Positions 27,882-50,452 of a DNA stretch of 64,000 nt are shown here, in pieces (position 1 is the first letter of the stretch; each line of letters begins with the position of its first letter). The notes beneath the pieces are model-generated. The model ran no database searches. It saw only the letters and a program-made list of their open reading frames with translations, and was not told the DNA's origin. The position numbers and the translations under genes are program-made. This DNA is from Naegleria gruberi (taxonomy: Eukaryota): NCBI GenBank assembly GCA_000004985.1, contig GG738916.1, one strand, 5' to 3'.

Positions 27882-27954
27882 TCCCCCTTAGCTCAGTCGG
27901 TAGAGCGTCAGACTGTTAATCTGCAGGTCGGTGGTTCGAGCCCACCAGGGGGAG
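27882..27954 (+). tRNA. tRNA-Asn (GTT)
   Basis: 73-nt cloverleaf: acceptor TCCCCCT/AGGGGGA, D-arm AGCTCAGTCGGTAGAGC, anticodon stem CAGAC/GTCTG?-like with loop CTGTTAA (anticodon GTT), T-arm GGTGGTTCGAGCCCACC. No encoded CCA. Confidence 0.9.
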
Positions 27955-28117
27955 ATAATTATTTTGTTGAGTCTGTTCAATTTTTTCTATTTCATGTTGC
28001 ACAATTTACTTGCACTTATTTTATATGTTAATTGAAATAAATAATAAACAATTGTAATTTCATTTAACAAAGGAATTTCCAATTTTTACTAAGACTCGAA
28101 CAGGATGCAGAGAATGA

Positions 28118-29473
28118 ATGATGAAGATTTACAAAAAAATGTCAGACTTGTTGATGTTTCACAGCCACGATTTAACTGATCAATTACCAACAGAAATGTT
28201 GTTAGAAATATTTTCCTTCCTCCATTCAAAATTCCGCCTCCTAACGCTTTCTCTCGTTTGTAAAAAGTGGAAGTTTCTATCGCTCACCAAAACGAAATTT
28301 AATGTTGAATTTAAAGGTGCAAAATCATCAACATTTATTAATAATGCACTATTTGAAATTGATCGGCAGCAGCTACTTGTAGATAAATTGGAATTTGGTG
28401 AAAACCCAGTTTCTCAAGCAACATTGGAAATTGTTGAAAATTTAAGAACAAGTTTACAATATTTAAAATGTCTTGTTCCTATTGATGAATTGCGGTTTAT
28501 TATTAATCAATTTTCAAATTTAAAATCTCTTGATATCAGAAGATCTAAATTATCTGATAATTCAATTTGTCATGAATTAATGAATAGCAAATTGTCATTA
28601 CCTAATTTAGTAGAATTGAAAATTGAAAATGAATTTAATAATGCAAAAACAGGTGATCATTCAATTAAAGCACAGCTTGTTTCCTTGACGATTGATGGTC
28701 CTAAAACGTATGGACGTATGTTCAAAATTAGGAAACCAGTTGTTGCTAATTTAGAATATCCAAATTTGAAAAAATTGGAACTAATTGACGTTGTTATTGA
28801 AAGTAGAACCTTGCCAATCGGTTTGAAATCACTTGCATTGATTGGATGCGATGTGAATTTCATAGAATTTGAAAGAGTTTCTGAAAGTTTAGAAAAATTA
28901 GAAATTAACCTTGTTACTACTGATGATGTTAATTTTTTACAAAAATCTAATTTAAAGAATTTAAAGAAATTAAAGATTACTAATCAGGATTTAACATTTT
29001 GGGAGAAATTAGAGAAGGTTTATCAAGATGAGTGGAAAGCTTTTACTTTAACAAGTTTTACCTTTGATAGAAATTATTCCAAAACGGTAAAAAAATTATG
29101 TAACTTGGATCTGTTAACAAGTTTAGACATTAGCAATGGCAAAATTTCATCCAATGATGTTATTGATCTTCTTAATGAATGTGAAATGAAAAATTTAACA
29201 AAATTGAAAGCTCAAAATTGTTCACTTTCTCAAGAAGTAATTCCAATTATAGAGAAAATGAAATCATTGAAATATTTGGACTTGAGTTTAAATTCATCAA
29301 TGAAAGATTCTGAAAGAGAGATTATTTGTGGAATGGAAATTGATTATATTGATTGTGGTGGAAAAAACTTCGATGAAATGAAAGAAACTAATGTTGAATT
29401 TTTAGATTCACTTTCGAATATTTCAATTTTTGAACCTAGAAAGAGCATTGAAATTTTGGAAACCAAAAATTAA
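28118..29473 (+). CDS. F-box / LRR protein
   Basis: 451-aa ORF. LPTEMLLEIFSFLHSKFRLLTLSLVCKKWKFLSL is a canonical F-box. It is followed by LRR-like repeats (LKSLDIRRSKL, LVELKIENE, LKKLELIDV, LKYLDLSLN). Confidence 0.6.
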   Translation: MMKIYKKMSDLLMFHSHDLTDQLPTEMLLEIFSFLHSKFRLLTLSLVCKKWKFLSLTKTKFNVEFKGAKSSTFINNALFEIDRQQLLVDKLEFGENPVSQATLEIVENLRTSLQYLKCLVPIDELRFIINQFSNLKSLDIRRSKLSDNSICHELMNSKLSLPNLVELKIENEFNNAKTGDHSIKAQLVSLTIDGPKTYGRMFKIRKPVVANLEYPNLKKLELIDVVIESRTLPIGLKSLALIGCDVNFIEFERVSESLEKLEINLVTTDDVNFLQKSNLKNLKKLKITNQDLTFWEKLEKVYQDEWKAFTLTSFTFDRNYSKTVKKLCNLDLLTSLDISNGKISSNDVIDLLNECEMKNLTKLKAQNCSLSQEVIPIIEKMKSLKYLDLSLNSSMKDSEREIICGMEIDYIDCGGKNFDEMKETNVEFLDSLSNISIFEPRKSIEILETKN

Positions 29474-29626
29474 TTTGATATTGATAAGAAATTCAGTTTA
29501 TTGATTAAGGAAATTCATGGAATTACAAACAGACACAATCAATTCAAATCAAGGAAATATTTTTCCTATTCAGTAGAATGTTCAATAGTTTCCAATAGGA
29601 AAAGTTCAGAAATTCACTCGACAAGA

Positions 29627-31216
29627 ATGATTCCATTCACAGAAAACTTACACTGGAACGAAGAAATTACATTTAATTCATTGATTTCTGAAATTTCATG
29701 TGACTATTGCATTCAAATTTCACTCATACGTTTCGATTTGGATTCAATGACAGGTACACTTTCCAGAAGGGAATTTCTTAAATGTAAATGTCCAGTATTC
29801 GATTCAAGCTTTCAATTATACCAAGGAGATTTAAATTTGCATTTGGACTCGGATATTTACCTAAATGTTGAGTTTCAAAATCATGGTTTTAATATCAAAT
29901 ATGAATTGGACAGGCCTATTGAACGACCATTTTTAGAGACTTTTGATATGGAAACAGGAATTGACTTGAGCGATTCCTCATTACTTGTTCCATTCCTTCG
30001 AAGAATTTCGTTTGAAAATCAATGGGTTATTTATGAATCTAGAAAATTAATTTCACAATGGGAAAAACCAGAAATTCATGAAATTGTAATATTACTCAGT
30101 GGAAATATTGGATTATTTGTAAAATCATTAATTATTCAATTATTGGAGCAAGTAGATCATGGTTTATTAACAAGTTTGTTACCATTTCTCATTCATTGTG
30201 TCAAATTTGATTCAGTGAATGGTGTACTAGTTGAATATTTATTGAAGTTATCGGTGAAATCAAAATCTATTGGAAATCAATTGTTTTGGCTTTTAAAAAC
30301 AGAATCAATTTATCATCAAGTGTGTAAATTAACGATTTCAAAATATTTGAAAATGATAGATAATGATGATATTGAAATTATTAGAAACCAATGTTTATTT
30401 TTCGATTCTATTGAGGAACGTAAAACATTCGAATTGAACTATCAAGTATTAATGCCTTTTACCATGTCCAAAATTAAAACTATTCACAAATTTATCTATC
30501 CTGAAACCAAGATTCAAAATCCACAACTTCACTTGGAGCTTGACAATGGAACATTCCTTGAATTGATTTACTATTCAAATTCTCCTGATATTTATTCAAC
30601 TTTTGCAATCAATAATTTTATAAATATTATTGGAAGAGATGTAAATAACACTACTATTGGACATTTTGTAATTGGATATAGGAGAGGATTTGTGATCATT
30701 CCAGATTCATTGAAACTTGTCCAAATTAATGAAACTGGTTTTCAAATATTTAGTGAACTTTGCAAAAACCAAAAAGCTCAAACATTTGCAGAGAATTTCA
30801 CAACAAGTTTAATATTAGAAATGTTTATAGCAGTATACTTTAATTCCAATTCTATTGATGAATTTTACATTAATGAAGAAGGTGGCATAATGTTGAAACT
30901 GTATTCTCTTTCATACACGAAAGAATTCGCATCTAAAAGAAACCAGAATAAGTTTGATGGATGGCTTACAAAATATCATGATGATTTCATTGAAAAGTTA
31001 AAGAATTTGATTCAAAAATTGGTGGACTATTTGAAGAAAACTGGATTGGCTTTTGGATTTTTTACTGCATTCACTCTTCCATCTCAATCTTGTGGATTTA
31101 GTAATCAGATTCATTTACAATACTTTACAAAATTTTTGAATGAAGATGTGAATATTGTGAGCGAGAAAATTCTACCAACATTTTTCTCCTCAGATCACTA
31201 TTCTAAAACCAACTAA
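29627..31216 (+). CDS. PI3K/PI4K-family-like protein (C2-like + helical accessory + degenerate catalytic domain; probable pseudokinase)
   Basis: Track ORF 29501..31216 starts on TTG; the first ATG is 29627. The central region resembles the PIK helical domain (LLEQVDHGLLTSLLPFLIHCVKFD...IGNQLFWLLKTESIY). The C-terminal region aligns with the PI3K catalytic fold (GFVIIPDSLKLVQI; SLILEMFIAVYFNSNSIDEFYINEEGGIMLKLYSLSY). The GDDLRQD, DRHxxN and DFG motifs are absent. Confidence 0.4.
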   Translation: MIPFTENLHWNEEITFNSLISEISCDYCIQISLIRFDLDSMTGTLSRREFLKCKCPVFDSSFQLYQGDLNLHLDSDIYLNVEFQNHGFNIKYELDRPIERPFLETFDMETGIDLSDSSLLVPFLRRISFENQWVIYESRKLISQWEKPEIHEIVILLSGNIGLFVKSLIIQLLEQVDHGLLTSLLPFLIHCVKFDSVNGVLVEYLLKLSVKSKSIGNQLFWLLKTESIYHQVCKLTISKYLKMIDNDDIEIIRNQCLFFDSIEERKTFELNYQVLMPFTMSKIKTIHKFIYPETKIQNPQLHLELDNGTFLELIYYSNSPDIYSTFAINNFINIIGRDVNNTTIGHFVIGYRRGFVIIPDSLKLVQINETGFQIFSELCKNQKAQTFAENFTTSLILEMFIAVYFNSNSIDEFYINEEGGIMLKLYSLSYTKEFASKRNQNKFDGWLTKYHDDFIEKLKNLIQKLVDYLKKTGLAFGFFTAFTLPSQSCGFSNQIHLQYFTKFLNEDVNIVSEKILPTFFSSDHYSKTN

Positions 31217-31368
31217 ACCCACGTATTAGTAGTAACACAACAAATGAATATTCTTTACAAAAAGAACTTTGAACATTGGAATCAAAACGTCAAATCACTC
31301 ATCACAAAACATTTCATGAAATTTGATTTTTCTTCCATTTTGCAATCTGATTTCCTGTATGTAAAAAA

Positions 31369-32967
31369 ATGTTATCTACATCTAGTTCTTCATTGCCCCT
31401 CAACCAATTAACCTCTCGTATTGGTCACAGTGGTATCTTTCATAAGGATCAGGTCTACCTTTTCGGAGGCTTTGTCAATTCCAACACTCTAGACAAACCT
31501 CTTGTTTATGTAAATGATCTGATTCAGGTGGATGTTTCTACTAGAAAGTGGGTAAACAAGACAACACACAATATCGGACCAAGTGCTCGTAACTTCCACT
31601 CATCATGTCTTTTGAAAGGAAAAGAAAATGATGATCGTAGTGGTGATGGTGCTGAGAGATGATTATTTTTGGCGGGAAATCAAATGGTTTTCATAATGAC
31701 GTTTGGTCGTATCGATTTGATACTTCTGAGTGGAGATTATTGGAACCTAGTAGTGGTGTTAGTGGTGTTAGTGGTGGTAATCAGATGATTAGTCCACGTT
31801 ATGGTCAATCGGCAACTATTTATGGTGATTATTTGGTTGTGTTTGGTGGTTATGATAACAATAGTTTCACATCGAATGAATTGTTTATTTTCAATTTGGA
31901 GAGTAGAGAATGGAAATTGATAGAATTGAGTGTTGAAATTAAGGGAAGATATTATCATGCTAGTGTTTTGGATGAAGAAACTGGTGATTGGTATATTTTG
32001 GGTGGTAAATCAGCTACTAATCTTGTTAAGGATTTTGTAAAGATTAAATTGTCTACTCTGGATGTGGATAAGGCTACTTGCCAATCGGAGGTATTAATTT
32101 CTGAACTTGATGGCTTTGCTCCAAGATTTGGTCATTCATTGGTGTTGGAAAAATCAGAAAATGGTAAAAGACTTTACTCCATTGGTGGTTGTAATAATAA
32201 GGTTGACCATTTGGATTGTATCTATATTGATTTAAATAACATCAAGAATGGTTGGGATGTAACTTATACTCATTCTCTTTCCCACACTTTCAAAAGCAAA
32301 GATGTTGGACCCGTATTTCATGCAAATGTTCCATTCCAAGTGATCAATGAAGATGATAGTATTGCTATGAATTACTTTGTATTTGGTGGTACTTATCAAA
32401 AGACTGAGGATTCTAAAATTCAAGAGACCAGCCAACAAACAGATAAGATTGAAAAGAAGCAGAAAAAGAAACAAGCTGGTGAGCCATCATTTAATATTGA
32501 AGTATTTGATAATGTGATGAATGATGACATTTTCAGATTGGTTCTCTCATTCATGACAATTTCAGATTTGTGTAAATTAGAGTTGGTCTCTAAGAAATTG
32601 AGAATTTGCAAGCTCACCTCAGAGGATCAATACTGGAAGGATTATTACTATCAAAGGATTAATTTATATTTGGAAGCAAGCAAAACTTATAACTATAATT
32701 ACAACAAGATAACTAGAGCTTATGAAACTAATTATCAATATTCTGAGATCTATACTTCATACCTCAAATTTACTAGCAACTATAAGAGACGTTTGATTGA
32801 AGTTATTGGAGAATGCATGTCAAAAGCTGACAGAGATCACCACAAGAGAACCAGTTATATTGAAGGTTTGTCACAATGTGGAAGTGACATCTACGTTCCT
32901 AAAGAAGAAATTCTCAAGTACAAGTTGAAAAATGCTTCAACAAGTGCTTTTAAAATTGTTCAAGTTG
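31369..32967 (+). CDS. Kelch-repeat protein with C-terminal-side F-box-like motif; frame broken at about 31655; possibly continuous with downstream Rho GTPase exons
   Basis: ORFs 31369..31662 and 31659..32987 overlap by 4 nt in different frames, inside one Kelch blade (..GPSARNFHSSCLLKGKENDDRSGDGAER / MIIFGGKSNGFHNDVWSYRFDTSEWR). Multiple Kelch blades (LFGGF, IFGG, VFGGY, ILGG, IGGC, VFGGT) are followed by NDDIFRLVLSFMTISDLCKLELVSKKLRI, an F-box-like motif. The ORF has no stop before a GTGAGT donor at 32968. The in-frame TGA at 32985 lies inside that intron. Confidence 0.55.
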
Positions 32968-33034
32968 GTGAGTTGTCATTTATTTGAGAAAATACTTGAA
33001 TACTAATTAATCAATTGAAATTTCAAATAATAAG

Positions 33035-34358: not shown

Positions 34359-36512
34359 ATGGCAAATAGTAATAACGATAGTGATAAAAACAAGACGACA
34401 ACTAAAACAACAGAAAGTCCGAATGGTAATGCTACAAGTCCAAGGATAAAGCAATCTTCTTTGAGTAACATCAATTCGGATGCTACTGGAAAGGAAGAAC
34501 TTCATGTAAGCTTTAACTTGAGTAATATTTCGAGTACGAGTACGAATGGTTTTGGTAATGGTAGTAGGGAGAATTCATTTAGAATTGTTAAACCAAATCA
34601 AAGACTAGGTGATGGCAATGAGGAAATCATTGAATTGGCAGATGCAGTAATATTGCAAAATGATGAGGAAGAATTAATGATTGACGAATCGAGTCCTGAG
34701 AATAGAAATTCAATGGAATGGTCTGGTAGTTTGGCAGAAGATGGCGAACAAGCAGAATTGTTTCGAGAATTGAAACAAGACAGAAAAGAAAGAAAGAATC
34801 AAGAACAGTGGAAATGGTTGTGGAACATGATTAAGGAAACTGTCACTGTATTTCTTCCTTTGGGATTGACAACTTTTGTTGGTGGTATTCAAATAGTATG
34901 TAGTAGAAAGAAAACAATTCATTGTAACAAGTTAAAATAGGTTCAAAAGAAATTTGTAGATAAGAAGAAATGGTTGACTGAGGCAGAATTTATGGAGATT
35001 TATGCTCTTTCTCAAAGCTTACCTGGTGCCATTATTAGTCAAGTAGTATTTTCGATAGCCATGTTAAGACATGGTTTTTGGTCTGGCTTTTTAGCCAATC
35101 TACTCTTTTGTGGACCTGGTTTTATTGCCAATTTGCTTTTTGGTTGGCTGATGGCTGACATTAGTATTGATGATAACTCGCCGAGATGGGTTCTCAACTT
35201 GCAAAACGGTTTGGCTTGTTCAGGTATTGCATTTGCTGTGAGCTCAGCGTTCAGAATGGCCTCAATGTTAAATAAGAGCAAAAGTAGAGCATTTTCATTT
35301 ATATTGGCAGGATTTGTTGCCATGTTGACAATGGTTGCCAAACCAATGTGGATCTTACCAATTCTCATATTTGGAGGTGCTTTTGTTAGTTACTTCTTCT
35401 CCCTCATTTATGATCGTATTATGAGCAGAATAGACAAGTATGAAATTAGAAAGCAAGCTGCTCAAAAGAAGGATAACGAAGAAGACGAGGAAGAAACCTC
35501 GCTGACCATCAAACAAAAGATTATCTTTGTTTACTTATTCTTCAAGAGCTTTTTCAAAAAGCTTCCTGTTGAACCAGCTCAACAAGATAACCAAGAACCT
35601 CAAGCAGAAACCCAAACAGTAGTGGAAGAAACTCAAGAGAAACGAAAACCAAAGGACAAGTTTTCTAAAAATGTTAGAACTCACTCACCTCTTTGGTTGG
35701 GCATTTCCATGCTTTTGATTTTTGCTCTATTATTTGTTGTTTTGATTGTTACCTCAGTAATTTTCGAAACTTACAAAAAGCCAACCATAACAAATGGAGT
35801 AGATGTGTTTAAGGAGACTATAATTATGTCTAATTTTTTCTACAAGTACGGAACATTGATTTTTGGAGGTGGAGTTGGAGGTATTCCTCTTTTGAGAAAT
35901 GAAATGGTTGAACGAAAGTGGGTAACCGAGCAACAGTTCATGAATGGCTTTTCAATTTCTAATGCCCTCGTTGGTCCAAAGCATAGTGTTGCAGCATTCT
36001 ATGGTGCCTGTATTGGTGCCAAGTTTGCTGAAGCATTAGTAAATAGTGGCTCCAATAGAACTATCAATGGAACATATCTGAATGAAACTCTCATTTTTGG
36101 AAATGAAACAAACTCAAACAACTTTACTAATCCGAATCAAATACGTGTGAAACAACGTTCCAGTGCTCTCTATTACATTTTACCGCCACTGTTAGGAGTA
36201 ATTGCAGGTTTACTTTTCCATTTACCTGGATATCTGACAATGGCAGGTTGCCTTCCATTGTGGAGAAAGATTAGAGAAAATAATGTAATCAAATTATCAT
36301 TAATAGGTGTTAATGCAGTTTGTGTAGGATTTGTAGTTTCCAATTCAATCTCTATGTGGATAGACAATGTTGGAACCAGTTCATATCTGGCTGCTGCCAC
36401 AATATTTTGCTTCTTAATGAACTTTTTTGATTTTTCTCCTCCAATAATTGTGATAGCTGGTGCTATTTTATCCATTGTAGCAGGTGAAATTGGCTTTGCA
36501 GTAGGTTGGTAA
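34359..36512 (+). CDS. Chromate-transporter (CHR family, bipartite ChrA-like) membrane protein with N-terminal hydrophilic extension; one intron
   Basis: Exons 34359..34895 and 34941..36512, with a 45-nt intron 34896..34940 (GTATGT...AAATAG, whose AG is the track's stop). This joins the two track ORFs into FLPLGLTTFVGGIQI|VQKKFVDKKKWLTEAEFMEIYALSQSLPGAI, matching CHR motif-1 (FGGG...W.te.eF...A..Q.lPGP). A second CHR half has FGGGVGGIPLLRNEMVERKWVTEQQFMNGFSISNALVGP. About 12 TM helices. Confidence 0.75.
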
Positions 36513-44167: not shown

Positions 44168-44238
44168 TGCGTCGACCGGGAATTGAACCCGGGTCACGGC
44201 GATGGCAACGCCGTATTCTACCACTAAACCATCGACGC
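44168..44238 (-). tRNA. tRNA-Gly (GCC), canonical copy
   Basis: Minus strand GCGTCGATGGTTTAGTGGTAGAATACGGCGTTGCCATCGCCGTGACCCGGGTTCAATTCCCGGTCGACGCA. Anticodon loop TTGCCAT. Intact T-stem CCGGG/CCCGG. Confidence 0.9.
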
Positions 44239-44451: not shown

Positions 44452-46812
44452 ATGGGAGTAAATACGAAAAGCAATACACTGCTTACACTTGTTTCCAAGT
44501 GGGCAGTCTCCAATTCCATTATTATTCCTACCAACAACAATTCTGCATTGGAAAATCATCACAATGTGCAACAATCAACAAGCCTTTTAGATTTGCTTCC
44601 GATGAGAGTAATTGAAGAATTACTATCCTATCAATCGGCCTCTTCATTGGAACATTACTATTCTCTTTATTCTTCATCAAACTCTTCATCATCAAATGTA
44701 TTGATGAATAATAATTATAATATTAATTTGAATAATAGGAAATTAATGCAAAGGATTGTGGATCAATGTTTTGCAAGATTAATCGGAATTCAATTTGGAG
44801 AACCTCTAATTTACTCTAAATTGCAGACAAAACAAGGACAGTTACTGAAGGAAGGTGAGGAATTGGGATTATCATCACTCGAAGACTTGGATGATGAAGG
44901 TTATCATATAACAAGCTATTTTGAAAGTTATTTGCAAAAGTGTTTGGTGAATGTGTTATCGGAGAGACAAATTATTGAATTTGTCAAGATGAGTGATGAA
45001 GAGAATGAAAAAGTGAATGAAGATTGTGTTGTTTATAAGGAATTTCTCGATTTACCAATTGCAGATTCTGTTCTTAATCTTGCATTTTCGGAATTTGATG
45101 AGAACAATGAAATATTTCACTACTCAAAACGTATTTTCAATACGATTGGACAAGCTGTTTCTAAATTTGCTAAATATTCGAAAAAAATATCAGTTCCAAA
45201 GACTCTCTTGAAATATTTGGATGAAAGTTGTTCGATTGAGGAGTTTTTTAGCAATTTTACTCATGTTCATGAAATATCCTTCAGAGATATGAGAGATTCA
45301 GATGTTCAAAATATTATTCATATTCTCAAGCAGTGTAATAATGTAGAATCACTTTCATTTTATCATACATTTTTCACAGAGTCCAATCTTGCAATGGTTT
45401 TAGATATTTACTCAGACGCCATCTATGTGCCTCCAACAGATTATTCAGTCTATTTTAGTGATGATATCATGGAAAAGAAACCAATAGAACCAGCAAATGC
45501 CATGGTATATGATGAATTTGATTTTTATAGTGACATTCTGTCTCCTTCAGTCCCAATCGAAACAACATTGGAATCCAATAAGAAAAGAGAAAATAATAAC
45601 TTGTTTATAGAAGACGAGCTTGATTCCAAAAAGAGAAAAACAGATCCACCCAAACTCAAGAAACTCTCATTCAGATCGATATCTCTGTATCACTCATCCT
45701 GTAAATCAATTAGAGAAATATTGGAATATAACTCAACAGATATGCATGGAGTGGAGCTGAATTTTTCCTTCAATGAAATGAGTTCAGTAATGGCCAATGA
45801 GATGCTCTCAGGAGAATCCATAAGAAATATAACAAGATTAATACTCACAGAAAACAATGTAGAAAATGACTTTCTCATTCACCTCTCATCTCAAAAAGAC
45901 TTTTTCAAAAGTATCAAACATCTAGATTTGAGTAATAATAACTTTGTTGGAACTATTGGAGTGAATGCATTATTCACAGCATTGAATAACTATTCTTCAG
46001 GTATTTCTTTGGAACATTTGAATATTAGTCACAACAAACTCGGGGGAACAGACCTCCTCAATGACAATTATCGAATTGTACACCAAAATGAATTTAGCAA
46101 ATTGATAGAATACTTGAATGGGCCTAATTGCAACTTGAAAGAACTTTTGATCTCAAATTGTGATTTAACCCAAACAATGGTCGAATCACTCCTACTTGCT
46201 GTGGCCAATAATTCATCCCTAACCACATTGGACATTTCCAATACTCATTCCCTCCGTTTGTGTGGTTCTTCTCTGTCTCTAATGATCACCTCCAACAGCC
46301 CCCTGAAGAAAATGTCCATATCCACATGCTCCCTCAATGAAATTTCAGATTCTCTCTTTAATTCTCTCCTCTCCAATACCTCTCTTAGATATTTAGATTT
46401 GAGTGGAAATCGTTTCAAAGAATATGGTGGGAAGAACATTCTGACCTATCTCAGAACCAAAATTGATCAGCAACTCACAGAAAAACGAAACAAACATCAA
46501 CCATTCCATTTGAATACTCTCGATTTATCCTCCAATACTCTAACAGAACAATTTTGTCTCCAATTGACCCAACTCTTTGCCTCTCACTCCACGGATACAA
46601 CTGAACTATTGGACAAACACTATCTTCAAGCTAATGGATTACCTCTCATTGACATTCTCCAATTGGAAAACAACTTTTTCTCTCCTCATCTCACTCTGAG
46701 ATTAAAACAAGCAGCTCTCGACAGTTTCATTGTGAATCGAATTGTTCTCACCAATGAAGATGGATCCTCTGAGGTATTTTCTAATGTTTGTGATGGAACC
46801 ACTCTCACTTGA
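44452..46812 (+). CDS. Leucine-rich-repeat (RNI-like) protein with N-terminal F-box-like segment
   Basis: 786-aa ORF. LLDLLPMRVIEELLSYQSASSL is near the N-terminus. RNI-type LRRs are present (LKHLDLSNNNF, LEHLNISHNKLG, LKELLISNCDL, LTTLDISNT, LRYLDLSGNRF, LNTLDLSSNTL). Confidence 0.55.
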   Translation: MGVNTKSNTLLTLVSKWAVSNSIIIPTNNNSALENHHNVQQSTSLLDLLPMRVIEELLSYQSASSLEHYYSLYSSSNSSSSNVLMNNNYNINLNNRKLMQRIVDQCFARLIGIQFGEPLIYSKLQTKQGQLLKEGEELGLSSLEDLDDEGYHITSYFESYLQKCLVNVLSERQIIEFVKMSDEENEKVNEDCVVYKEFLDLPIADSVLNLAFSEFDENNEIFHYSKRIFNTIGQAVSKFAKYSKKISVPKTLLKYLDESCSIEEFFSNFTHVHEISFRDMRDSDVQNIIHILKQCNNVESLSFYHTFFTESNLAMVLDIYSDAIYVPPTDYSVYFSDDIMEKKPIEPANAMVYDEFDFYSDILSPSVPIETTLESNKKRENNNLFIEDELDSKKRKTDPPKLKKLSFRSISLYHSSCKSIREILEYNSTDMHGVELNFSFNEMSSVMANEMLSGESIRNITRLILTENNVENDFLIHLSSQKDFFKSIKHLDLSNNNFVGTIGVNALFTALNNYSSGISLEHLNISHNKLGGTDLLNDNYRIVHQNEFSKLIEYLNGPNCNLKELLISNCDLTQTMVESLLLAVANNSSLTTLDISNTHSLRLCGSSLSLMITSNSPLKKMSISTCSLNEISDSLFNSLLSNTSLRYLDLSGNRFKEYGGKNILTYLRTKIDQQLTEKRNKHQPFHLNTLDLSSNTLTEQFCLQLTQLFASHSTDTTELLDKHYLQANGLPLIDILQLENNFFSPHLTLRLKQAALDSFIVNRIVLTNEDGSSEVFSNVCDGTTLT

Positions 46813-49950: not shown

Positions 49951-50452
49951 TCATTAGTTATTCATTAACAACATTTTATGATAGATATCAAGAAGCGTCG
50001 ATGGTTTAGTGGTAGAATACGGCGTTGCCATCGCCGTGAATAGGGTTCAATTCCCGGTCGACGCATAAATTATTTTCCATTTCAACATTCTTTCATTTTC
50101 TCTTTTTCAACTTTATACCACTAAAACTAGACATTTATTACTATCTCTACTCCAAAAATCACATCTTTAAAATCAATATTCATCGAGAAAGAAACCTCGG
50201 TTTTTACCCCATTTTTTCTTTCATTTTATTAAAAGATAAATTTGGTGAACTTTGTAAAACTCAAAAAAAATGTCTGAAATCGATAAACAACCAAACCTTC
50301 AATCAAAAACTTCTACCCATCCTCTTTTTGCATTCCTTCGTGATTATTCCATCATAGGTGGTGCTCATCTCTGCTCTGTAACTTTCACTGCTCCTCTACA
50401 TAGAGCAATAGATGTTATTACAAATTTCGAGAAAGATCACAATATTCTGGAA
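49951..50452. repeat. Right arm of about 500-bp inverted repeat (carries variant tRNA-Gly and promoter/exon 1 of carrier gene)
   Basis: Reverse complement of 43772..44283. Confidence 0.85.
49995..50065 (+). tRNA. tRNA-Gly (GCC), variant/possibly impaired copy
   Basis: Identical to the 44168..44238 copy except the T-stem 5' strand. ATAGG replaces CCGGG (GTGAATAGGGTTCAATTCCCGG), weakening 2 of 5 T-stem pairs. Confidence 0.75.

What the first reader, a model, noticed from the sequence alone, without database searches (positions are those of the whole stretch)
29627..31216. PI3K/PI4K-fold protein lacking all catalytic motifs (candidate lipid-kinase pseudokinase)
The protein shows a C2-like N-terminus, a PIK helical-domain-like middle and a C-terminal region alignable to the PI3K catalytic lobe. 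Its key residues are replaced. NIIGRDVNN occupies the position of GDDLRQD. NSNSIDEF occupies the position of DRHxxN. SLS occupies the position of DFG. Such a protein would bind but not phosphorylate, acting as a scaffold or regulator.
Basis: inference. Interest (0 to 1): 0.5.

Follow-up and report, generated by a model that had tools for sequence, protein, structure and literature searches.

The report
Broken F-box gene with dead PI3K remnant
This Naegleria gruberi reading frame descends from a PI3-kinase but has lost every catalytic motif. It is the tail of a larger F-box/leucine-rich-repeat gene that a single stop codon cuts in two here, so it is a curiosity limited to this species, possibly a dying gene copy, and not a working lipid kinase.

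Summary
The window is Naegleria gruberi. Bases 29627-31216 are the annotated gene NAEGRDRAFT_74644 (529 aa).

**Confirmed**
- No catalytic motif is present.

**Not confirmed**
- The C-terminal 265 aa have no significant similarity of their own to PI3K/PI4K kinase domains.
- Only a weak collinear signal exists: 3/100 shuffles reach the observed score.
- One paralogue keeps a remnant, IRKNDEIYMDVQGH, at the DRHNDN position.
- AlphaFold2 could not fold this region (pLDDT 24-49).

**New**
- The ORF shares its frame with the upstream F-box+LRR ORF (28118-29470).
- One TAA (29471-29473) separates them, at a position where both paralogues have Ser.
- The read-through aligns as one HSP with paralogue NAEGRDRAFT_52708 (E=5e-123).
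- The annotated Met lies inside the C2 domain.
- The family has three members, all in N. gruberi.

**Verdict**
This is the distal part of an F-box–LRR–dead-PI3K gene specific to this species. In this assembly a nonsense codon splits it. Interest is modest.

The parts
28118..29470 (+). Upstream ORF of 451 codons with an F-box (aa 21-55, nt 28178-28282) followed by leucine-rich repeats. It is annotated separately as NAEGRDRAFT_53605.
   Evidence: Pfam F-box-like E=1.3e-9, F-box E=1.7e-7, LRR_Zer-1 E=5e-8. 100% match to P0039, 450 aa. Same reading frame as the PI3K-like ORF.
29471..29473 (+). Single in-frame TAA that separates the F-box/LRR ORF from the PI3K-like ORF. It sits where both paralogues have Ser.
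   Evidence: Translation and sequence. In the one-HSP alignment to P0002 the stop pairs with Ser. P0003 also has Ser-Phe-Asp at this point. Frame 0 of 28118-31216 has 2 stops in 1033 codons; the other five frames have 56-119. TCA is one substitution from TAA.
29474..29626 (+). 51 in-frame codons between the stop and the annotated ATG. Treated as intergenic in the annotation, but homologous to the paralogues' coding sequence and containing the first strands of the C2 domain.
   Evidence: 27-41% identity to the paralogues over residues 1-22 of the ORF, and C2-level identity after that. The Pfam C2 match starts at residue 23. AF2 strands E2-6 and E19-30 have pLDDT 87-94.
29555..29905 (+). PI3K-type C2 domain (residues about 19-135 of the 571-codon ORF).
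29975..30418 (+). PIK helical (accessory) domain, residues about 159-306. Its first 45-60 residues are missing compared with genuine PI3Ks.
   Evidence: Pfam PF00613 E=3.3e-12, profile positions 49-164 of 185. phmmer match to p110gamma. Alignment A2. AF2 pLDDT 79-91.
30419..30889 (+). Degenerate region in the position of the kinase N-lobe, hinge and catalytic loop (residues 307-463). LIYYSNSPDIY (30563-30595) lies opposite IFKxGDDLRQD. NSNSIDEF (30842-30865) lies opposite GDRHNDNI.
   Evidence: The anchored hhalign alignment extends to residue 463. Shuffle control: 3/100 reach the score and 0/100 reach the length. The region alone is not significant. It is conserved among the paralogues, BLASTP E=5e-12, 1e-6 and 3e-9. 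AF2 pLDDT 24-49.
30890..31216 (+). Poorly conserved C-terminal tail (residues 464-571) plus the stop codon.
   Evidence: Identity among paralogues is 8-32%, with large indels and different ends. Not included in the significant alignment.

Best explanation
The flagged ORF is the distal part of a gene family limited to N. gruberi. The ancestral architecture is F-box – leucine-rich repeats – PI3K-type C2 – PIK helical domain – a fast-evolving C-terminal module. That module is most likely the decayed remnant of the PI3K kinase domain.

**Shown**
- C2 and the helical domain descend from class I/II-type PI3Ks.
- The catalytic Lys, DRH and DFG are absent, so the protein cannot act as a conventional lipid kinase.
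- The ORF is in frame with the upstream F-box/LRR ORF across one TAA, and that junction is collinear with an uninterrupted paralogue.
- The annotated start Met truncates the C2 domain.

**Inferred**
- An intact family member, such as the paralogue NAEGRDRAFT_52708, would work as an SCF-type F-box adaptor. The dead PI3K scaffold, meaning the C2 domain, the helical solenoid and the kinase remnant, would serve as a binding platform for membrane or protein and not as an enzyme.
- In this window the copy has been cut by a Ser-to-stop change. The F-box/LRR half (451 aa) can still be made. The PI3K-like half would be made only from an internal Met, with a damaged C2 domain.
- This copy is therefore most likely a recently disabled or split gene, unless the stop is an assembly or allelic artefact.
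For: - **Identity and family.** Searches identify the ORF. An exhaustive HMMER scan of 1.84 billion representatives finds only three members, all from N. gruberi NEG-M.
- **No catalytic domain or motifs.**
- **Kinase remnant.** The collinear extension reaches the catalytic loop and beats the shuffles. P0002 keeps IRKNDEIYMDVQGHV opposite DRHNDNIMLxKDGxL. Foldseek of the first, low-confidence model returns only class I PI3Ks in its top 50. The predicted order of strands and helices fits a PI3K kinase domain.
- **Single gene across the stop.** The two ORFs share a frame. One BLASTP HSP of 920 columns to P0002 gives E=5e-123. The stop pairs with Ser in both paralogues. All three paralogues carry LRR sequence directly N-terminal to C2. 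There are 2 stops in 1033 codons, against 56-119 in the other frames.
- **Constraint on the C-terminal module.** Paralogue-to-paralogue BLASTP over this region gives E=5e-12 to 1e-6. Identity is 22-33%, against 39-53% in C2 and the helical domain.
Against: - The C-terminal region on its own is not significantly similar to any kinase domain. AlphaFold2 does not fold it. It could be a different domain.
- No reads, ESTs or RNA-seq could be consulted, so the TAA may be a base-call error or present in one allele only.
- The 153-nt gap between the TAA and the ATG is within the normal intergenic spacing of this window. Two separate genes, as annotated, are therefore possible.
- The P0002 and P0003 gene models lack an F-box at their N-termini. 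F-box and PI3K-like parts in one polypeptide are thus inferred from this locus only.
- The AF2 C2 and helical model used PI3K sequences in its alignment, so it is not independent of the sequence evidence.
- It was not verified that the libraries searched contain the proteomes of other Naegleria species.
Confidence: 0.62

Rival explanations
1. The annotation is right. NAEGRDRAFT_74644 is an independent gene encoding a 529-aa stand-alone pseudo-PI3K that acts as a scaffold or regulator. It arose by fission of the ancestral F-box–LRR–PI3K-like gene.
For: The ORF stays open for 571 codons in sequence of 29-30% GC. The 153-nt distance from the upstream stop to the ATG equals typical spacers in the window, for example 31216 to 31369. 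The C-terminal module is conserved among the paralogues.
Against: The 51 codons upstream of the ATG are in frame, free of stops and homologous to the paralogues. Starting at Met43 removes the first C2 strands. No promoter or transcript evidence is available.
Confidence: 0.18
2. The TAA is a sequencing or assembly error, or is present in one haplotype only. The real gene is an intact ORF of about 1032 aa encoding F-box–LRR–C2–PIK–remnant, like its paralogue.
For: There is only one interruption in 1033 codons. The stop is one substitution from the Ser codon TCA and pairs with Ser in both paralogues. The neighbouring Kelch/F-box gene also carries a minimal frame defect, in a GAGAGA run at 31654-31659. 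That would fit lower local sequence quality in this AT-rich stretch.
Against: No read data could be examined. A transversion inside non-repetitive sequence is not a typical assembly error. Two adjacent defective genes would fit pseudogenisation equally well.
Confidence: 0.25
3. The C-terminal 265 residues are not a kinase remnant. The kinase domain was replaced by an unrelated domain specific to this family, so the protein is a C2–PIK-helical protein and not a pseudokinase.
For: No independent sequence similarity to kinase domains. AF2 pLDDT is 24-49. The tails of the three paralogues differ in length and sequence.
Against: - The region begins exactly where the kinase domain begins.
- Its length to the 'catalytic loop' fits: about 109 residues from the GDDLRQD-equivalent to the DFG-equivalent, against 122-141 in real PI3Ks.
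- The anchored alignment extends 170 columns further than any shuffle.
- P0002 retains R-x-N-D-x-I...D..GH in register with the catalytic loop.
- Foldseek's top 50 hits are all PI3Ks, with alignments of 480-640 columns.
Confidence: 0.2

Closest known systems
Class I / class II PI3K catalytic subunits (p110gamma, p110alpha, PI3KC2alpha)
   Same: Same order of C2, then the PIK helical domain, then a C-terminal module of similar length. These are the best sequence and structure matches. Conserved helical-domain motifs such as GxQxFWxLK are kept.
   Different: - No detectable PI3_PI4_kinase domain, and no catalytic Lys, DRH or DFG.
- No ABD or RBD; F-box and LRR lie upstream instead.
- The first 45-60 residues of the helical domain are missing.
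- The C-terminus is about 25-30 residues shorter than in real PI3Ks.
Tra1/TRRAP, the catalytically inactive member of the PI3K-related kinases (PMC5982823)
   Same: A PI3K-superfamily protein that has lost kinase activity and serves as a scaffold.
   Different: Tra1/TRRAP keeps a clearly recognisable, conserved PI3K-like domain and is universal in eukaryotes. Here the domain is barely detectable, the family is confined to one species, and it derives from lipid PI3Ks and not from PIKKs.
Pseudo-PIPKs of ciliates and other protists (PMC3823935)
   Same: Phosphoinositide-kinase paralogues in protists with substituted catalytic residues, proposed to be regulatory.
   Different: They belong to a different kinase family (PIPK). 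Their kinase domains still score E=1e-45 to 1e-53 in Pfam, with only a few residues changed. Here the whole domain has decayed.
F-box/LRR (FBXL-type) substrate receptors of SCF ubiquitin ligases
   Same: The upstream ORF has an N-terminal F-box followed by LRRs, the canonical FBXL layout.
   Different: FBXL proteins end with the LRR domain. I know of no FBXL protein that carries a PI3K-derived C2-helical module, and the literature searches found none. In this assembly the two halves are separated by a stop.

Membership tests
PI3K catalytic-subunit family (PI3K/PI4K lipid kinases) | PIK helical (accessory) domain, PF00613 | tested here: met
   E=3.3e-12, 46.7 bits against a 31-bit cut-off. Both paralogues match as well.
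PI3K catalytic-subunit family (PI3K/PI4K lipid kinases) | PI3K-type C2 domain, PF00792 | tested here: met
PI3K catalytic-subunit family (PI3K/PI4K lipid kinases) | Recognisable PI3_PI4_kinase catalytic domain | tested here: not met
   No Pfam hit at E<=1. hmmsearch --max scores about 0 bits. hhalign P=0.16. No PDB hit.
PI3K catalytic-subunit family (PI3K/PI4K lipid kinases) | Catalytic residues: the ATP-binding Lys (IFK), GDDLRQD, the DRHxxN catalytic loop and DFG | tested here: not met
   In the anchored alignment Lys becomes Tyr, GDDLRQD becomes SNSP---D, and D-R-H-N-D-N becomes S-N-S-I-D-E. No such motif occurs anywhere in the C-terminal region of any paralogue.
Pseudokinase (kinase fold kept, catalysis lost) | Retention of the bilobal kinase fold | tested here: inconclusive
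   AF2 pLDDT is 24-49 for residues 303-571 in both models. The order of secondary-structure elements and the Foldseek hits fit a kinase. The anchored alignment beats shuffles only modestly.
Pseudokinase (kinase fold kept, catalysis lost) | The domain is kept under selection and not left to decay | tested here: inconclusive
   Residues about 307-465 remain 22-33% identical among the paralogues, with significant BLASTP E-values. The tail is at random level (8%) for one pair. dN/dS could not be computed because the paralogues' DNA could not be retrieved.
F-box protein / SCF substrate receptor | An F-box motif in the same polypeptide | tested here: not met
   The F-box is present in the upstream ORF, but in this assembly TAA 29471-29473 separates it from the PI3K-like part. 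Continuity is inferred from the paralogue alignment.
F-box protein / SCF substrate receptor | Binding to Skp1 | not testable with these tools
   This needs a pull-down or a two-hybrid assay.
Unitary pseudogene | A disabling mutation relative to intact relatives | tested here: met
   There is an in-frame TAA where both paralogues have Ser.
Unitary pseudogene | Accumulated multiple disablements or loss of coding character | tested here: not met
   There is only one internal stop in 1033 codons and no frameshift. The interruption is therefore recent, tolerated or artefactual.

The most novel reading that the evidence does not exclude
N. gruberi has evolved a small family of SCF-type F-box receptors whose substrate- or membrane-binding end is a catalytically dead class I/II PI3K scaffold, made of C2, the helical domain and a kinase remnant. 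These would be the first pseudo-PI3K lipid-kinase derivatives described. They would link phosphoinositide-signalling architecture directly to ubiquitin ligation, for example by mimicking a PI3K to capture its partners for degradation.
Probability: 0.2. Interest if true: 0.55.

Novelty: new variant of a known kind. Interest (0 to 1): 0.3.

Why it matters
- **If the family is functional.** It would be an example of a lipid kinase turned into a non-catalytic module. The one survey I read (PMC3823935) says pseudo-phosphoinositide kinases had not been described before its own pseudo-PIPKs. The module would sit in an unprecedented fusion with an F-box/LRR adaptor, which hints at crosstalk between PI3K-type scaffolds and ubiquitin ligases in a free-living amoeboflagellate.
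- **Annotation.** One paralogue (XP_002673689.1) is named 'phosphatidylinositol 3-kinase' although it has no kinase domain. NAEGRDRAFT_53605 and NAEGRDRAFT_74644 are probably two halves of one gene or pseudogene. Counts of the PI3K repertoire in Naegleria should exclude these three proteins.
- **Limit.** The family is confined to one species and this copy is interrupted, so the wider significance is limited.

Tried and rejected
- **Intact catalytic exon elsewhere in the window.** tblastn with six genuine kinase domains gave nothing better than E=0.29. Rejected.
- **An intron that removes the stop.** Homology to the paralogues continues residue by residue on both sides of the TAA, with no gap. 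The two ORFs share a frame and no canonical GT...AG pair brackets the stop. Rejected.
Contradicted by the anchored alignment.
- **The C-terminal region as another known domain.** Pfam and PDB profile searches gave only chance-level hits; the best was TENT5C at E=0.22.
- **More family members, for a deeper alignment or for orthologues.** Three searches found only the three N. gruberi proteins.
- **DNA of the paralogues, for dN/dS and for upstream F-box exons.** Not on record.
- **Foldseek against AFDB.** The library was not available.
- **Literature.** No paper mentions these loci, or a PI3K-derived pseudokinase fused to an F-box.
- **First AF2 run with two sequences.** pLDDT was 36, too low to use except for the order of secondary-structure elements.

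Full report
**What the locus is.** The window is nuclear DNA of Naegleria gruberi strain NEG-M. The flagged interval 29627-31216 (+) encodes, at 100% identity, the 529-aa 'predicted protein' XP_002670346.1 / NAEGRDRAFT_74644. The open frame actually begins earlier, at 29501, directly after a stop at 29471-29473. I number residues from 29501, which gives a 571-codon ORF with the annotated Met at residue 43. The surrounding genes are ordinary eukaryotic genes, including a Brr2-type helicase, a chromate transporter, leishmanolysin, RCC1-repeat proteins and a P-type ATPase.

**N-terminal and middle domains.**
- Pfam finds the PIK helical domain (PF00613) at E=3.3e-12, above the gathering score, at residues 164-277.
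- Pfam finds the PI3K C2 domain (PF00792) at E=5.4e-5 and 23.6 bits, just below the 26.4-bit cut-off, at residues 23-115.
- A profile of the three family members aligns to a profile of eleven genuine PI3Ks with Prob 99.7% and E=1.6e-25.
- I built an alignment of the family plus the C2 and helical parts of genuine PI3Ks, leaving their kinase domains out on purpose. With it AlphaFold2 gives pLDDT 80-94 for residues 1-135 (C2) and 159-306 (helical).

The protein therefore descends from a class I/II-type PI3K and not from Vps34. The first 45-60 residues of the helical domain are missing.

**The C-terminal region, tested alone.** Several tests found nothing.
- No PI3_PI4_kinase match at E<=1.
- phmmer against the PDB matches only the helical segment.
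- In the exhaustive HMMER scan, all outside hits cover only the helical region.
- I cut out the post-helical part of the three paralogues and compared it with 13 genuine kinase domains. hhalign gave P=0.16, and 13 of 150 column shuffles scored as high.
- hmmsearch with all filters off gave about 0 bits.
- The same profile found no PI3K in the PDB.
- AlphaFold2 left residues 303-571 at pLDDT 24-49 in both runs.

**The C-terminal region, tested in context.** There is a weak positive signal.
- The full-length profile-profile alignment does not stop at the helical domain. It continues collinearly for 441 columns, to residue 463, which is the end of the catalytic loop.
- When only the C-terminal columns are shuffled, the alignment never exceeds 334 columns. 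Only 3 of 100 shuffles reach the observed score.
- Paralogue P0002 carries IRKNDEIYMDVQGHV in register with DRHNDNIMLxKDGxL.
- The spacing from the GDDLRQD-equivalent to the DFG-equivalent is about 109 residues, against 122-141 in real enzymes.
- The predicted order of strands and helices fits a PI3K kinase domain. That comparison rests on my knowledge of PI3K structures and on low-confidence models.
- Foldseek of the low-confidence first model returned only class I PI3Ks among its top 50, with alignments of 480-640 columns.
- The region is clearly conserved within the family, with pairwise BLASTP E=5e-12, 1e-6 and 3e-9. It evolves faster than the rest: 22-33% identity, against 39-53% in C2 and the helical domain. 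The last ~100 residues are at 8-32%.

I conclude that it is probably a decayed kinase-domain remnant, with probability about 0.7. That is not proven.

**Catalytic motifs.** Under the anchored alignment:
- IFK-x-GDDLRQD corresponds to IYYSNSP---D (30563-30595), so the ATP-binding Lys is Tyr.
- G-D-R-H-N-D-N-I corresponds to N-S-N-S-I-D-E-F (30842-30865).

The first one, NIIGRDVNN at 30623-30649, is wrong. That stretch lies in the loop after the helix that follows the GDDLRQD position. 'SLS = DFG' lies beyond the aligned part and could not be tested. No paralogue has a Lys/DRH/DFG set. No kinase-like coding sequence exists elsewhere in the window. Loss of conventional catalytic capacity is robust.

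**The main new result: the ORF is not a self-contained gene.**
- The upstream ORF 28118-29470 (F-box at aa 21-55, then LRRs; annotated as NAEGRDRAFT_53605) is in the same reading frame. One TAA separates it from the PI3K-like ORF.
- The read-through translation aligns with paralogue P0002 (NAEGRDRAFT_52708, 963 aa, an uninterrupted LRR-plus-PI3K-like protein) in a single HSP of 920 columns, E=5e-123.
- The stop pairs with Ser in P0002 (..VSSFQINER..) and in P0003 (..ICSFDFDKN..), against ..TKN*FDIDKK.. in the window. The flanking residues are conserved on both sides. No intron is involved, and TCA to TAA is one substitution.
- P0003 (XP_002673689.1, misleadingly named 'phosphatidylinositol 3-kinase') also has LRR sequence directly before its C2 domain.
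- The 51 codons between the stop and the annotated ATG are conserved with the paralogues. They form the first C2 strands in the model. A product starting at Met43 would have a truncated C2 domain.
- Across 28118-31216 the coding frame has 2 stops in 1033 codons. The other five frames have 56-119. The interruption is single and therefore recent, tolerated or artefactual.

**Distribution.** Only three proteins in 1.84 billion cluster representatives belong to the family. All three are from N. gruberi NEG-M, on different scaffolds. I could not verify that the proteomes of other Naegleria species are in those libraries, so 'species-specific' is provisional.

**Most likely mechanism.** Taking the family as a whole, an F-box would bind Skp1 and the LRRs would follow. 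A PI3K-derived, catalytically dead C2-helical-remnant module would then act as a binding platform. In other words, the protein would be an SCF adaptor built on a PI3K scaffold. Only the domain content is shown; the function is inferred. For this copy I rate the outcomes as follows:
- A genuine nonsense mutation that leaves a stand-alone F-box/LRR protein and an untranslated or crippled downstream ORF: about 0.4-0.45.
- A base-call or allelic artefact, with an intact 1032-aa gene: about 0.25.
- A true fission into two functional genes: about 0.2.

The neighbouring Kelch/F-box gene also has a frame defect, and the whole 28-32 kb stretch is unusually AT-rich. Both observations fit either local pseudogenisation or lower sequence quality.

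**Comparison with known systems.**
- It resembles class I/II PI3K catalytic subunits in the order of its domains, but it fails the defining catalytic-domain and catalytic-residue tests. It is not a PI3K.
- Tra1/TRRAP is a functional analogy (PMC5982823), but Tra1 keeps a well-conserved PI3K-like domain.
- The pseudo-PIPKs of protists (PMC3823935) keep strongly recognisable kinase domains with point substitutions.
- The upstream half is a standard FBXL-type layout. I found no report of an F-box/LRR protein carrying PI3K accessory domains.

**Verdict.** The feature is real and unstudied in the literature searched, and it is a new variant of known kinds (pseudoenzyme and F-box protein). It is confined to one species, may be a pseudogene in this copy, and has no functional evidence. 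Interest is 0.3.

Noticed in passing
window 31369-32987 (+), junction at 31654-31662: The downstream Kelch-repeat + F-box gene is split into two overlapping ORFs in different frames (31369..31662 and 31659..32987). Kelch repeats continue across the junction. The shift occurs in ...GCT GAG AGA TGA TT..., where removing 'GA' from the GAGAGA run would restore ...AEMIIFGG.... There is no room for an intron, so this is a frameshift or a sequence error.
   Followed up: partly
window 28000-32000: GC content drops to 28.5-30.5% over the F-box/LRR–PI3K-like and Kelch genes, against 31.5-37.7% elsewhere in the window. GC at the third codon position of these ORFs (0.22-0.26) is below that of the neighbouring genes (0.29-0.41).
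   Followed up: partly
window 27882-27954 (+); 44168-44238 (-); 49995-50065 (+): There are three tRNA genes: tRNA-Asn(GTT), 164 nt upstream of the F-box ORF, and two tRNA-Gly(GCC).
   Followed up: no
P0003 = XP_002673689.1 (N. gruberi), not in the window: This paralogue is named 'phosphatidylinositol 3-kinase' in NCBI and UniProt. It lacks any detectable kinase domain or catalytic motif, and its model starts inside the LRR region, so it is probably mis-named and truncated at the N-terminus.
   Followed up: partly
P0012 (901 aa, Logan assembly, organism unknown), not in the window: This is another degenerate PI3K from an unidentified eukaryote. It keeps the VFK lysine, but has NSIEMKRD in place of GDDLRQD, MEVKLSA in place of DRHNDN, and LLDYG in place of HIDFG. 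Catalytically compromised PI3K paralogues may therefore exist outside Naegleria.
   Followed up: no
window 44452-46812 (+): A further LRR protein (786 aa; Pfam LRR_6 and LRR_4) lies 13 kb downstream. I did not check whether it is related to the F-box/LRR ORF at 28118.
   Followed up: no
window 34359-34940 and 34974-36512 (+): Two adjacent same-strand ORFs lie 33 nt apart. The second is a chromate transporter (PF02417, E=3e-44), and the first has no Pfam hit. They may be exons of one gene.
   Followed up: no
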